From a bacterium (GTDB lineage: Bacteria; Patescibacteriota; Microgenomatia; Levybacterales; UBA12049): 64,000 bases of DNA. The notes under the pieces were generated by a model. That model was not told where the DNA came from. It was given only the letters and a program-made list of their open reading frames with translations, and made no database searches. This document shows positions 29,921-32,568 of the stretch, one piece after another. The translations under genes were made by a program, and so were the position numbers. Position 1 is the first letter of the stretch. Each line of letters begins with the position of its first letter. Location: contig JAJYWL010000016.1 in assembly GCA_021791545.1 (NCBI GenBank), forward strand, positions 87,545-151,544. Reading direction: 5' to 3'.

Positions 29921-30663
29921 AAGTAGTTTATATATTGTGGCTTAGGCAACTTAAAAAATATGTGAGATCCAGGTCAAGGATCATAGGGTCTTTAGGACAA
30001 CCTGTTTTATTTTTGATAGCTTTTGGTTTTGGTTTTGGCCCGGTCTTCCAAAGAGCAGGACAAGGAAATTACATTAATTTTTTGGCTCCGGGAATAATAT
30101 TAATGAGTGTTCTGTTCACGGCAATATTTTCAGGTATAGATCTGATTTGGGACAGACAGTTTGGATTTTTAAAAGAAACAATGGTTGCTCCGGTCTCAAG
30201 GTTTGAAATAATGTTAGGGAAAACTGCGGGAGGTGCAACAGTCGCAATGATACAGGGAATAGTTGTTTTTCTTTTAACATTAATTATTGGTTTCAGGCCT
30301 CATAATATTGCTATGCTTCCTACGGCTTTTTTGTTTCTTGTATTGGTTGCTTTACTTTTTACATCTCTAGGTACAGTTATCGCATCTACTCTTGAAGATA
30401 TGCAAGGATTCCAGTTAATTATGAATTTCTTGGTAATGCCAATATTCTTTTTATCAGGTGCTCTGTTTCCTCTTAATGGGTTGCCTTCCGCTTTAGCTCT
30501 TGTTACGAGAATAGACCCCTTAGCCTATGGAATAGACGGATTGAGAGGAGCTTTGATAGGTCAAAATATTTTTTCTTTAACTACCGATTTATCTATTTTG
30601 CTGGTTATTACCTTAGTTTTACTTTTATTAGGAAGTTATCTTTTTGAGAGGATTCAAATTTAA
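29917..30663 (+). CDS. ABC-2 type transporter permease
   Basis: Six-TM ABC-2 family pattern. It is translationally coupled to the upstream ATPase. Confidence 0.7.
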   Translation: MKVVYILWLRQLKKYVRSRSRIIGSLGQPVLFLIAFGFGFGPVFQRAGQGNYINFLAPGIILMSVLFTAIFSGIDLIWDRQFGFLKETMVAPVSRFEIMLGKTAGGATVAMIQGIVVFLLTLIIGFRPHNIAMLPTAFLFLVLVALLFTSLGTVIASTLEDMQGFQLIMNFLVMPIFFLSGALFPLNGLPSALALVTRIDPLAYGIDGLRGALIGQNIFSLTTDLSILLVITLVLLLLGSYLFERIQI

Positions 30664-31364
30664 ACCATTTCTTTTTCACTCATTAAGGTAAAAAGTTCGT
30701 AATCGGAACCACTCCAGTCTTTTCTTTCTAAAAATCTTTCCCAGTCTTTATGTTGGGTTTTATGTTCCTTTAGCGCTTTTATTTTAATTTCTTTTGTTTC
30801 CTTGATATCAACCAATGTTGTTATTTCGCTGTCCTTAGTTCCTTTTACCTTGCCGAAGGCATTGTAGCCAAGTCCCATTTTTTCAAATTTTTTAATCATA
30901 CTTCTGGGGCTTGCCGTATGGTAGAGCCTTACGTGTTTTGTAGCTTCTTTTTTGTATTGTTCGAATACTCTTGTGGCAGCTCTTGAAATGGCTTTATGGT
31001 CGGGATGATTGGATCCTCCAAACTTATCAAAGGTAATAATGACATCTGGCTTTTCTTTCTTTACGACTTTTAATATCTTTTCGTCAATTTCTTTATTTTT
31101 TATATACCTTAATCTTCCGTCCCAAAAACCCAAGAAGTAAATTTTTGATATTCCTAGAATTTTTGCAGCATTTCTCAGTTCCTGTTCTCTGACTTCTCCG
31201 ATTTTTTCTTTTGTGGTAATCGGTGGATCTCCAACCATTCCTTCCTCGCCCCTGGTAGCTGTTGCCAAGTTAACCTTGTGACCCATTGAGGTTAACTTTG
31301 CAATTGTTCCACCACTCGAAAAAGTCTCATCATCGGGATGTGCAAATACCAACAAAAATTTCAT
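30660..31364 (-). CDS. PIG-L family (LmbE-like) N-acetylglucosaminyl deacetylase
   Basis: AHPDDE zinc-binding motif at the N-terminus (LLVFAHPDDETFSSGGT) and a later HPDH motif. Confidence 0.75.
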   Translation of the reverse strand: MKFLLVFAHPDDETFSSGGTIAKLTSMGHKVNLATATRGEEGMVGDPPITTKEKIGEVREQELRNAAKILGISKIYFLGFWDGRLRYIKNKEIDEKILKVVKKEKPDVIITFDKFGGSNHPDHKAISRAATRVFEQYKKEATKHVRLYHTASPRSMIKKFEKMGLGYNAFGKVKGTKDSEITTLVDIKETKEIKIKALKEHKTQHKDWERFLERKDWSGSDYELFTLMSEKEMV

Positions 31365-31413
31365 ACTAAAATTATTACATTATTTTGTTAAAATTGCATT
31401 AAAATAGAAGAGG

Positions 31414-32568
31414 ATGAAAATTTATAACAGCAGGACCAGGAAAAAGGAAGAATTCAAGCCCCTCAAGAAAGGGGAAGTTACGTTATATGTATGTGGAATT
31501 ACCCCTTATGACACTACCCACTTGGGGCATGCATTTACTTATATTTCTTTTGACGCTGTCGTTAAGTACCTAATCTACAAAGGATATAAAGTAAATTACA
31601 CACAAAATGTAACGGACATTGATGATGATATTTTAAGAAAAGCTAAAGAAGAAAAAGAGGACTGGAGAAAGCTTGGTAATTTTTGGACAGAAAAATTTCT
31701 TGAGGATCTTAAATTCTTAAATATTTTAATTCCGAATCATTATGTAAAAGCGACAAATTCTATAGATGAAATAATAGAAATAAATAAAGATCTTTTTAAA
31801 AAAGGAATGGCATATGAAAATGGAGGAAACCTTTATTATGATGTATCAAAATTTAAAAGTTATGGAAAACTTTCTAAATATTCAAAAAGGCAAATGTTAA
31901 TTCTTCTTAAGGAAAGAGGAGGAGATCCCAACGATCCATTAAAGAAAAATAAACTGGATTTTATTTTGTGGCAAAAGTCTAAAAAAGGGGAGCCATTTTG
32001 GGAAAGTCCTTGGGGTAACGGAAGACCCGGTTGGCATATAGAATGTTCGGCAATGGTCAGAAGATTCTTGGGAGAACAGATAGATATTCATGGAGGAGGA
32101 AAAGATCTTATATTTCCCCATCACGAAAGCGAAATTGCCCAATCAGAAAGCTATACGGAGAAGGAGCCTTTCGTTGGTAAATGGATGCATACGGCAATGG
32201 TAATGTGCAGCGGAGAAAAAATGTCTAAATCGCTAGGAAATCTGGTAATGGTTTCAAAGCTAAGCAAAAAATATCCGTCAAATGTAATAAGGTGGATGCT
32301 TTTGTCTAACCATTACAGGATGCCTTGGGAATATGACGATTCTCTAATGACTATTGCCAAAAAGGAATATTCAATGATAGAAAAAATACTTGAAAAGAAA
32401 GGAAATTATTCGGTAAATCCAAAAGCCGTTAAGAAATTCGAAGAATTTATGGAAGATGATTTTCAAGTGCAAAAAGTATTAAGATTTGTCCTGCGTCTTT
32501 CTGGGAAAGAGGAAAATAAAGAAACTATAAAGATGATATTAGAAATTTTAGGCTTTAAAGTGATATAA
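31414..32568 (+). CDS. cysteinyl-tRNA synthetase homolog (384 aa) lacking most of the anticodon-binding domain; CysRS or MshC-like cysteine ligase
   Basis: HIGH-type motif (TTHLGHAFTY) and KMSKS are present. CysRS zinc ligand positions are conserved (CGITPYD, HIECS, HGGGKDLIFPHHESE). Only about 115 aa follow KMSKS, versus about 190 in E. coli CysRS. Confidence 0.7.
   Translation: MKIYNSRTRKKEEFKPLKKGEVTLYVCGITPYDTTHLGHAFTYISFDAVVKYLIYKGYKVNYTQNVTDIDDDILRKAKEEKEDWRKLGNFWTEKFLEDLKFLNILIPNHYVKATNSIDEIIEINKDLFKKGMAYENGGNLYYDVSKFKSYGKLSKYSKRQMLILLKERGGDPNDPLKKNKLDFILWQKSKKGEPFWESPWGNGRPGWHIECSAMVRRFLGEQIDIHGGGKDLIFPHHESEIAQSESYTEKEPFVGKWMHTAMVMCSGEKMSKSLGNLVMVSKLSKKYPSNVIRWMLLSNHYRMPWEYDDSLMTIAKKEYSMIEKILEKKGNYSVNPKAVKKFEEFMEDDFQVQKVLRFVLRLSGKEENKETIKMILEILGFKVI

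What the first reader, a model, noticed from the sequence alone, without database searches (positions are those of the whole stretch)
30660..32568. Divergent PIG-L deacetylase and anticodon-domain-less CysRS homolog: possible MshB/MshC-like low-molecular-weight thiol module rather than (or as well as) housekeeping cysS
The CysRS homolog keeps the HIGH and KMSKS motifs and all zinc/cysteine-binding ligands (Cys in CGITPYD and HIECS; His/Glu in HGGGKDLIFPHHESE). It ends about 115 residues after KMSKS, so most of the helical anticodon-binding domain that reads the GCA anticodon is missing. That is exactly the architecture of MshC, the CysRS paralog that ligates cysteine to GlcN-inositol in mycothiol synthesis. 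The divergently transcribed neighbour is a PIG-L/LmbE deacetylase with the AHPDDE motif, the family of MshB and BshB. The pairing is suggestive of a cysteinyl-aminosugar thiol pathway. The same window also holds other redox-stress genes (NiSOD, FMN reductase). The alternative is a minimal true CysRS, as expected in reduced genomes, so this needs checking.
Basis: partly seen in the sequence, partly recalled or inferred. Interest (0 to 1): 0.6.

Follow-up and report, generated by a model that had tools for sequence, protein, structure and literature searches.

The report
Deacetylase paired with MshC-like cysteine ligase
A tiny-genome (CPR) bacterium keeps a sugar deacetylase gene next to a shortened cysteinyl-tRNA-synthetase relative from the same branch as the mycothiol enzyme MshC, and related organisms fuse the two genes, so they probably work together; I could not establish whether the pair makes a cysteine-sugar compound or whether the short enzyme is simply the cell's only cysteine-tRNA charger.

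Summary
Both genes are real: a 234-aa PIG-L deacetylase (30660-31364, -) and a 384-aa CysRS homolog lacking the C-terminal anticodon domain (31414-32568, +), separated by 49 bp.

The short protein is not an ordinary CysRS. With hundreds of ~385-aa CPR proteins it falls in a clade (87% bootstrap) that contains M. smegmatis MshC and short homologs from Chloroflexota and Actinomycetota, apart from canonical CysRS. In two Actinomycetota loci the short gene sits beside a full-length CysRS. The whole clade has replaced four canonical-invariant residues (R42, K73, K185, N237) and reshaped the CP loop.

The PIG-L link is not chance. The divergent pair recurs in 5 of 8 CPR loci with different flanks; 23 short-ligase and PIG-L clusters share exact contig lengths (about 1 expected); one lineage has a tight operon; two divergent proteins are ligase::PIG-L fusions.

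Against a simple MshC call: the protein passes NCBI's cysS cutoff, fails the MshC cutoff, keeps the fourth zinc ligand, and no other thiol-pathway genes are nearby.

I could not check the rest of the genome for a canonical cysS, which is the decisive test. Estimates: MshB/MshC-like deacetylase-ligase module about 0.55; sole housekeeping CysRS about 0.35.

The parts
30660..31364 (-). PIG-L/LmbE-family zinc deacetylase or amidase, 234 aa
   Evidence: ORF. PF02585 133.8 bits. Below all NCBIfam equivalog cutoffs: BshB2 129.4/195, MshB 97.8/224, Mca 90.7/277, BshB1 74.5/182. Best solved relatives: diacetylchitobiose deacetylase 75.6 bits, MshB 60 bits. 55-72% identical 234-aa orthologs in Levybacteria, Daviesbacteria and Microgenomates.
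31326..31343 (-). AHPDDE metal-binding/catalytic motif of the PIG-L protein (aa 8-13)
   Evidence: Read from the translation; aligned to the HPDD motif of solved PIG-L enzymes.
31365..31413 (.). 49-bp AT-rich divergent intergenic region that must hold both promoters
   Evidence: The spacer is 42-50 bp in five lineages (window, L002, L089, L090, L093) with back-to-back -10-like boxes. Promoter function is inferred, not shown.
31414..32568 (+). 384-aa cysteine-activating class I synthetase homolog of the short, MshC-containing clade; lacks the anticodon-binding domain
   Evidence: PF01406 372.7 bits. TIGR00435 418.8 (cutoff 340), TIGR03447 373.8 (cutoff 485.1). Clade with MshC 174/200, CPR subclade 191/200. 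AF2 pLDDT 94.3.
31519..31530 (+). HIGH motif (HLGH, aa 36-39), followed by F41 where canonical CysRS has invariant R42
   Evidence: Alignments.
31912..31929 (+). ERGGDP segment of the CP insertion (aa 167-172), shared with M. smegmatis MshC and gapped in canonical CysRS
   Evidence: alignments; motif table. The CP1 loop in canonical CysRS reads the first acceptor base pair (PMC5389517).
32116..32133 (+). PHHESE (aa 235-240): zinc ligands H236 and E240; S239 replaces canonical N237
   Evidence: MshC has PHHEYS and only three protein zinc ligands (PMC9736012).
32218..32232 (+). KMSKS loop (aa 269-273)

Best explanation
The two genes form a conserved functional module built on MshB/MshC logic. 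The PIG-L enzyme removes an acetyl group from an N-acetylglucosamine-type compound to expose an amine. The short synthetase-like enzyme activates cysteine with ATP (Cys-AMP, zinc-selected) and transfers it to that amine, giving a cysteinyl-aminosugar: a low-molecular-weight thiol, its precursor, or a cysteinylated envelope glycan. The acceptor is not known and is probably not GlcN-inositol. Shown: gene identities, clade membership, the physical linkage patterns, and retention of all adenylation and zinc residues. Inferred: the direction of the chemistry, the acceptor, and independence from tRNA. The enzyme may in addition charge tRNA-Cys if the genome has no canonical CysRS.
For: (1) All short forms, MshC and the fusions are monophyletic and separate from 94 canonical CysRS in 174/200 bootstraps (75% in an earlier tree). 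(2) Outside CPR the short form is a paralog. In L086 and L057 it lies immediately upstream of a full-length CysRS with DALR_2 and CysS_C domains. (3) Two proteins only 56% identical to each other (P0130 634 aa, P0297 648 aa) are fusions of a short-clade ligase with a PIG-L domain. (4) The divergent PIG-L/ligase pair occurs in the window, L002, L089 (different flanks), L090 and L093. L171 has a translationally tight PIG-L to short-ligase operon. (5) 23 of the top 120 ligase clusters and top 120 PIG-L clusters share the exact longest-contig length, against 1.1 expected; 11 of these are contigs under 10 kb. (6) The whole clade, CPR included, replaced canonical-invariant R42, K73, K185 and N237, lost the anticodon domain, and shares the CGITPYD, DWRxLG and ERGGDP motifs with MshC. 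(7) Characterised members of the PIG-L family act on GlcNAc-type amides; MshB precedes MshC in mycothiol synthesis (PMC9736012).
Against: It passes NCBI's cysS equivalog cutoff and fails the MshC cutoff, and it leans further toward cysS than any other short-clade member tested. It keeps the Glu zinc ligand and uniquely retains canonical Y152, K188 and I239. No GT4, GNAT or inositol genes were seen in the window or flanks. Three CPR lineages (L003, L004, L005) have the short gene without an adjacent PIG-L, in housekeeping contexts with tRNA-Glu just upstream. L171 places it where housekeeping cysS sits in Bacillus gltX-cysE-cysS. No canonical CysRS was seen in any CPR locus held, and an anticodon-domain-less CysRS can charge tRNA (PMC5389517). 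The window PIG-L is only about 30% identical to the fused PIG-L domains.
Confidence: 0.55

Rival explanations
1. The short protein is the organism's only, housekeeping cysteinyl-tRNA synthetase, a natural CysRS without an anticodon domain. The PIG-L enzyme is linked to it because it supplies cysteine, for example as an Mca/Bca-like amidase that releases cysteine from scavenged host bacillithiol- or mycothiol-type compounds. In that case PIG-L plays the role that cysE plays in the Bacillus gltX-cysE-cysS operon. Alternatively the two genes merely share a bidirectional promoter.
For: TIGR00435 418.8 bits, above the cutoff of 340. All adenylation and zinc residues are kept. The protein is very conserved and abundant in CPR, at 58-66% identity over more than 100 clusters. 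Contexts are housekeeping: tRNA-Glu, RNase H-like, DNA pol III delta. L171's gltX-PIG-L-cysS mirrors gltX-(T-box)-cysE-cysS. CysRS* lacks the anticodon domain and still charges tRNA. No second CysRS homolog lies in the 64-kb window or in any CPR locus held. Small genomes rarely keep paralogs (general knowledge). The PIG-L's best NCBIfam hit is BshB2, with Mca also matched.
Against: The clade is separate from canonical CysRS and contains MshC. Its non-CPR members coexist with a canonical CysRS. Three invariant basic residues and the CP1 loop that reads the acceptor stem are changed in the same way as in those paralogs. Regaining tRNA charging after such losses would be unparsimonious. I know of no precedent for fusing an aaRS to a PIG-L domain, whereas consecutive pathway enzymes often fuse. 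No amidase activity on free thiols is known for this PIG-L subgroup.
Confidence: 0.35
2. The adjacency is a chance or purely syntenic neighbourhood with no functional meaning. The short protein is an ordinary CysRS whose resemblance to MshC is convergent domain loss.
For: The pair is divergently transcribed rather than an operon in the window. PIG-L is absent next to the gene in L003, L004 and L005. One canonical CysRS locus (L009) has a PIG-L about 9 kb away, which gives a sense of background.
Against: 23 shared contig fingerprints against 1.1 expected. The pair is kept while both flanks change. An independent operon and two fusions exist. Shared derived residues and motifs plus 87% bootstrap argue against convergence.
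Confidence: 0.05

Closest known systems
MshC (L-cysteine:GlcN-inositol ligase, mycothiol synthesis; PDB 3c8z, 8hfm) with MshB (PIG-L deacetylase)
   Same: Same fold and domain set without an anticodon domain (TM 0.91-0.93, rmsd 1.8-2.1 A). Same clade. Shared CGITPYD, DWRxLG and ERGGDP motifs. Partnered with a PIG-L enzyme, as MshC follows MshB in the pathway.
   Different: Fails TIGR03447 (373.8/485.1). Keeps the Glu238-equivalent zinc ligand (PHHESE against PHHEYS). No MshA, MshD or inositol genes nearby. The PIG-L fails the MshB model (97.8/224). Host is a CPR bacterium, not an actinobacterium. The acceptor is probably different.
Canonical bacterial cysteinyl-tRNA synthetase (E. coli CysRS, PDB 1li5/1u0b; TIGR00435)
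   Same: HIGH, KMSKS, all four zinc ligands and Trp205 are conserved. Passes the curated HMM cutoff. 39-43% identity to solved CysRS.
   Different: Lacks the CysS_C anticodon domain. R42F, K73D, K185Q and N237S at canonical-invariant positions. Remodelled CP loop. Branches outside 94 canonical sequences.
CysRS* of Desulfobacterales (anticodon-domain-less CysRS that charges selC* tRNA-Cys; PMC5389517)
   Same: No anticodon-binding domain and an altered CP1 loop, showing that such an enzyme can still aminoacylate a tRNA.
   Different: CysRS* is a second copy beside a normal CysRS, is genetically coupled to selB*/selC*, and has not been reported with a PIG-L partner.
Bacillithiol pathway BshA/BshB/BshC
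   Same: The PIG-L partner's best curated match is BshB2 (129.4 bits). The pathway has the same deacetylate-then-add-cysteine logic.
   Different: BshC is unrelated to CysRS (from my own knowledge, not tested here). The PIG-L is below the BshB1 and BshB2 cutoffs. No BshA-like GT4 is nearby.
Bacillus gltX-(T-box)-cysE-cysS operon
   Same: L171 has gltX, then PIG-L, then short cysS-like in the same order, with PIG-L in the cysE position.
   Different: The middle gene is a deacetylase/amidase, not serine acetyltransferase. No T-box is possible in the 49-bp spacer of the window.

Membership tests
Canonical CysRS (cysS, TIGR00435) | Class I catalytic core with HIGH, KMSKS and the Cys/Cys/His/Glu zinc site | tested here: met
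   H36-H39, K269-S273, C27, C211, H236, E240.
Canonical CysRS (cysS, TIGR00435) | Score above the curated equivalog cutoff | tested here: met
   418.8 bits against 340, but only profile positions 1-375 of 466 are matched.
Canonical CysRS (cysS, TIGR00435) | C-terminal anticodon-binding domain (Pfam CysS_C, PF23493) | tested here: not met
   No PF23493 hit. The protein ends 111 aa after KMSKS. Canonical partners and P0133 do hit PF23493.
Canonical CysRS (cysS, TIGR00435) | Canonical-invariant residues R42, K73, K185, N237 (at least 91% conserved in 161 canonical sequences) | tested here: not met
   F41, D72, Q187, S239 in the window protein; the same pattern holds across the short clade.
Canonical CysRS (cysS, TIGR00435) | Branches among canonical CysRS | tested here: not met
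   Separate clade with MshC in 174/200 bootstraps.
Canonical CysRS (cysS, TIGR00435) | Charges tRNA-Cys; the only CysRS of the genome | not testable with these tools
   Only 64 kb plus flanks of the genome could be read. No second homolog there. No tRNA-Cys gene in the loci held.
MshC (TIGR03447) | Score above the curated equivalog cutoff | tested here: not met
   373.8 against 485.1. None of 10 other short-clade members passes either.
MshC (TIGR03447) | CysRS-like fold without an anticodon domain | tested here: met
   Foldseek TMq 0.91-0.93, rmsd 1.8-2.1 A to 3c8z/8hfn.
MshC (TIGR03447) | Common ancestry with MshC to the exclusion of canonical CysRS | tested here: met
   87% NJ bootstrap. Only one MshC sequence (a fragment from the PDB alignment) was available, and the position inside the clade is unresolved.
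MshC (TIGR03447) | Three-ligand zinc site (Glu238 equivalent lost; PHHEYS) | tested here: not met
   PHHESE with E240 retained. MshC ligands are C43, C231, H256.
MshC (TIGR03447) | Coexists with a separate housekeeping CysRS | not testable with these tools
   Met for relatives L057 and L086. Unknown for this genome.
MshC (TIGR03447) | Genomic company of MshA (GT4), MshD (GNAT) and inositol-phosphate synthase | tested here: inconclusive
   None in the window or 10-kb flanks. The rest of the genome was not seen.
PIG-L / LmbE deacetylases (MshB, Mca, BshB1, BshB2) | PF02585 domain with AHPDDE and HPDH metal motifs | tested here: met
   133.8 bits; motifs aligned to solved enzymes.
PIG-L / LmbE deacetylases (MshB, Mca, BshB1, BshB2) | Passes one of the curated equivalog cutoffs (substrate-specific subfamily) | tested here: not met
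   BshB2 129.4/195.25, MshB 97.8/224.35, Mca 90.7/277.15, BshB1 74.5/182.5.

The most novel reading that the evidence does not exclude
Microgenomates-type CPR bacteria make a previously unknown cysteinyl-aminosugar (a new low-molecular-weight thiol or cysteinylated glycan) with a two-enzyme PIG-L plus MshC-like module. The same anticodon-domain-less enzyme is also their only CysRS. That would make it a naturally bifunctional enzyme and a living intermediate between CysRS and MshC.
Probability: 0.2. Interest if true: 0.85.

Novelty: new variant of a known kind. Interest (0 to 1): 0.62.

Why it matters
Whichever explanation holds, current annotation is misleading. NCBI calls these proteins cysteine--tRNA ligase, JGI calls many of them the mycothiol ligase, and neither curated model fits.

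If the module makes a cysteinyl-aminosugar, it would be the first thiol-type pathway proposed for CPR bacteria in the literature I could search. It would also show that MshC is one specialised tip of a much wider ligase family spanning CPR, Chloroflexota and Acidimicrobiia.

If instead the short enzyme is the sole CysRS, a large bacterial group reads tRNA-Cys without an anticodon domain and without three residues invariant elsewhere. That would revise the rules of tRNA-Cys identity and identify the stock from which MshC evolved.

Both outcomes can be tested directly with one recombinant protein pair.

Tried and rejected
(1) The GTDB genome scan with the short protein was saturated by the generic WHIECSAM pattern. 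It returned mostly canonical CysRS from unrelated phyla, so it could not test for a second cysS in CPR genomes, though it was useful as a comparison panel.

(2) The metagenome scan seeded with PIG-L was saturated by VFAHPDDE. Only one ortholog-level locus (L093) came back.

(3) Ten literature searches found no paper on short CPR CysRS, no aaRS inventory for Microgenomates, and no residue-level roles for R42, K73 or K185. Their link to tRNA binding therefore remains my inference.

(4) Cluster-name look-ups for AT-rich canonical-length representatives did not reveal a CPR canonical CysRS to use as a probe. Most clusters carry no name, so this is not evidence of absence.

(5) Fold comparison does not separate CysRS from MshC.

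(6) tRNA scans of CPR loci found no tRNA-Cys.

(7) The three anticodon-domain-less sequences with canonical motifs (P0161, P0208, L024) look like truncated fragments, not CysRS*-type enzymes, so they give no control.

(8) The downstream 184-aa membrane ORF is not conserved with the equivalent ORF in L002 and was dropped from the module.

(9) Orthology between the window PIG-L and the fused PIG-L domains was rejected. They are about 30% identical, no closer than to an unrelated PIG-L in L009.
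Full report
OBSERVATION. One is a 234-aa protein on the minus strand (30660-31364) and the other is a 384-aa protein on the plus strand (31414-32568). 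A 49-bp AT-rich spacer separates them. Pfam assigns the first to PIG-L (PF02585, E=6.7e-39) and the second to the class I CysRS catalytic domain (PF01406, E=1.9e-111). In the second protein the HIGH and KMSKS motifs and all four zinc ligands are present. It ends 111 residues after KMSKS.

One detail needs correcting. The helical bundle is largely kept: the cysS profile is matched to position 375 of 466, and the AlphaFold model (pLDDT 94.3) has helices to residue 378. What is absent is the linker and the small C-terminal anticodon-binding domain (Pfam CysS_C), which canonical homologs do carry. The window is from a low-GC (about 35%) Patescibacteria/CPR genome of the Microgenomates type, judging from the source names of the closest homologs.

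WHAT THE SHORT PROTEIN IS. The curated models disagree with each other. It passes NCBI's cysS equivalog (418.8 bits, cutoff 340) and fails the MshC equivalog (373.8, cutoff 485.1). Database sources disagree too: NCBI names the relatives cysteine--tRNA ligase, and JGI names many of them the MshC-type ligase.

Residue-by-residue comparison with solved structures shows a mosaic. With M. smegmatis MshC it shares CGITPYD-THLGHA, DWR-LG and an ungapped CP-domain segment containing ERGGDP, whereas the canonical CysRS need gaps there. With CysRS it shares PHHE-S-EIAQSE, including the Glu zinc ligand. MshC has replaced that Glu and has three protein ligands (PMC9736012).

Hundreds of proteins of about 385 aa, 58-66% identical to this one, exist in CPR. 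An exhaustive search of 50%-identity representatives and a panel of 80 named GTDB CysRS genes revealed a wider pattern. Proteins with a short tail nearly always combine CG[IV]TPYD with PHHE[S/C/A]E, and long ones have PHHENE.

In neighbour-joining trees of the catalytic core, all short forms, the MshC sequence and two fusion proteins form one clade apart from 94 canonical CysRS. Support is 75% in the first tree and 174/200 with a better alignment. The CPR proteins form a subclade (191/200). None of ten other short-clade members reaches the MshC cutoff, and they straddle the cysS cutoff at 315-398 bits. The family therefore sits between the two curated models. The predicted structure matches the CysRS-tRNA complex and MshC equally well (TM 0.93 each, lowest rmsd to MshC), so fold does not decide.

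THE SHORT FORM IS A PARALOG ELSEWHERE. In L086 (a 4.45-Mb, 66% GC contig) the short gene is immediately followed by a 459-aa CysRS with DALR_2 and CysS_C domains. In L057 (an Acidimicrobiales chromosome) the same tandem occurs. In L085 the short gene lies in a cluster that I recognise, from memory, as the actinobacterial thrS-HIT-pgsA-acyltransferase-GT4 arrangement. So at least in Actinomycetota the short form coexists with the housekeeping enzyme, as MshC does.

A site analysis compared 161 canonical sequences with the short groups. Every short group, CPR included, has replaced four canonical near-invariant residues: R42 to F/A, K73 to D/S, K185 to Q, and N237 to S/C. Three of these are basic. 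I infer, but could not document, that they serve the tRNA acceptor end. The CP1 loop remodelled here is the one that reads the first acceptor base pair in canonical CysRS (PMC5389517). The CPR subclade alone keeps canonical Y152, K188 and I239.

THE LINK TO PIG-L IS REAL. Several independent lines point the same way.

(a) The divergent pair, always with a 234-aa PIG-L and a 42-50-bp spacer, is found in the window/L001, L002, L090, L093 and L089. In L089 both flanks are entirely different.

(b) The PIG-L protein is as conserved in these CPR as the ligase, at 55-72% identity. Among the top 120 clusters of each protein, 23 share the identical longest-contig length against 1.1 expected by chance. 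Eleven of these are contigs under 10 kb, where the genes must be neighbours.

(c) L171 (40% GC) has a tight co-directional arrangement of gltX, PIG-L and a short-clade ligase. The ligase start codon directly follows the PIG-L stop.

(d) Two proteins only 56% identical to each other, P0130 (634 aa) and P0297 (648 aa, in L087 at 31% GC), are fusions of a short-clade ligase with a C-terminal PIG-L domain.

Some limits apply. PIG-L is absent beside the gene in L003, L004 and L005. The fused PIG-L domains are only about 30% identical to the window's PIG-L. The fusions group with Dehalococcoidia/Chloroflexota forms rather than inside the CPR subclade. The PIG-L itself cannot be assigned a substrate: it is below every equivalog cutoff (best BshB2, 129/195), and its best solved relatives are diacetylchitobiose deacetylase and MshB.

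MOST LIKELY MECHANISM. Three things point to MshB/MshC logic: clade membership with MshC, paralogy elsewhere, and three independent kinds of physical coupling to a family whose characterised members work on GlcNAc-type amides. Under this logic, deacetylation exposes a sugar amine, and the ligase then transfers ATP-activated cysteine to it. I put this at about 0.55, counting the case in which the enzyme also charges tRNA. The acceptor is unknown. No MshA-like GT4, MshD-like GNAT or inositol genes are in the window or in the flanks of relatives, and the protein is not a member of MshC by the curated test.

THE MAIN RIVAL. The short enzyme may be the only CysRS of these small genomes (about 0.35). 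Several facts favour this. It exceeds the cysS cutoff and is the most cysS-like member of its clade. It sits in housekeeping contexts with tRNA-Glu just upstream. In L171 it occupies the position of cysS in the Bacillus gltX-(T-box)-cysE-cysS operon (PMC4342826), with PIG-L in the place of the cysteine-supplying enzyme. That suggests PIG-L could be an Mca/Bca-like amidase salvaging cysteine from host thiols. An anticodon-domain-less CysRS that charges tRNA is documented. Against this rival: a tRNA-charging origin for the CPR subclade requires that the changes it shares with proven paralogs be compatible with tRNA charging, and it leaves the fusions unexplained. Pure chance adjacency is nearly excluded (about 0.05).

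WHAT COULD NOT BE DONE. The decisive test is whether a full-length CysRS (or SepRS/SepCysS) lies elsewhere in the same genome. It was out of reach. Only the window and 10-kb flanks could be read, the one genome-collection scan was swamped by a generic motif, and no paper in the library inventories CysRS types in CPR. There is no second CysRS homolog in the 64-kb window or in any CPR locus held, but that covers a small fraction of a genome.

NOVELTY. The components belong to known families, and the logic resembles mycothiol and bacillithiol synthesis, so this is a new variant of a known kind. New relative to the literature I could search are: (i) a large short CysRS/MshC-like clade across CPR, Chloroflexota and Acidimicrobiia that fits neither curated model; (ii) its recurrent coupling, including fusion, to PIG-L enzymes; and (iii) its presence as a conserved pair in CPR, where no thiol pathway is described. 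One recent preprint simply zeroes such non-actinobacterial 'mycothiol' calls. Interest is moderate to high because either resolution is informative, and one recombinant protein pair would settle it.

Noticed in passing
L108:590-3396 (JGI Ga0180437_10052873): A canonical 454-aa CysRS is followed by a DinB-like protein weakly matching mycothiol transferase MST_Rv0443 (80.6 bits, cutoff 170) and then a PIG-L (BshB2-like, 116 bits). This is a thiol-type cluster beside a canonical cysS in a 50% GC organism.
   Followed up: partly
L171:1333-3727 (JGI Ga0155912_133): gltX, PIG-L and a short-clade cysS-like gene form a tight operon: PIG-L overlaps the gltX end, and the ligase ATG directly follows the PIG-L stop. 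The order mirrors the Bacillus gltX-cysE-cysS operon.
   Followed up: partly
L057:9995-12663 and L086:8001-10636: Tandem short CysRS-like gene plus full-length CysRS in two high-GC Actinomycetota genomes. The short copies score higher on the MshC model (407 and 391 bits) than on cysS but are still below the MshC cutoff, so Acidimicrobiia-type MshC candidates escape the curated model.
   Followed up: partly
L003:5860-5934 and L089:4297-4371: A tRNA-Glu(UUC) gene lies just upstream of the short cysS (67 nt in L003) or of the PIG-L/cysS pair (L089). This repeats a Glu-Cys translation-gene linkage.
   Followed up: no
window:34761-38026: LigD (821 aa: LigD_N, ligase, primase-polymerase domains) and Ku (267 aa) form a non-homologous end-joining pair in a small CPR genome.
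   Followed up: no
window:42493-43800: FMN reductase, nickel superoxide dismutase (Sod_Ni) and an S26/S24-type peptidase (probably the NiSOD maturation protease) lie in a row. The same trio is found in L002.
   Followed up: no
window:25883-28636: FMN_bind protein, ApbE flavin transferase and a 507-aa membrane protein combining an RnfD/NqrB-like region with an FNR-type NAD-binding domain. This is a possible flavinylated membrane reductase, and it is also found next to the pair in L090.
   Followed up: no
window:44297-45295: A FemAB-family aminoacyl-tRNA-dependent peptidyltransferase gene lies about 12 kb from the short synthetase. It is also present in L002.
   Followed up: no
window:32576-33130: A 184-aa ORF with N- and C-terminal hydrophobic segments directly downstream of the ligase has no family match in NCBIfam and no Pfam hit on record. 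It is not conserved with the ORF at the same position in L002.
   Followed up: partly
L087:1626-3179: The contig carrying the ligase::PIG-L fusion (31% GC) encodes a helicase with an archaeal-type domain 4 (Helicase_dom4_arc). The organism's affiliation (CPR, DPANN or other) was not determined.
   Followed up: no
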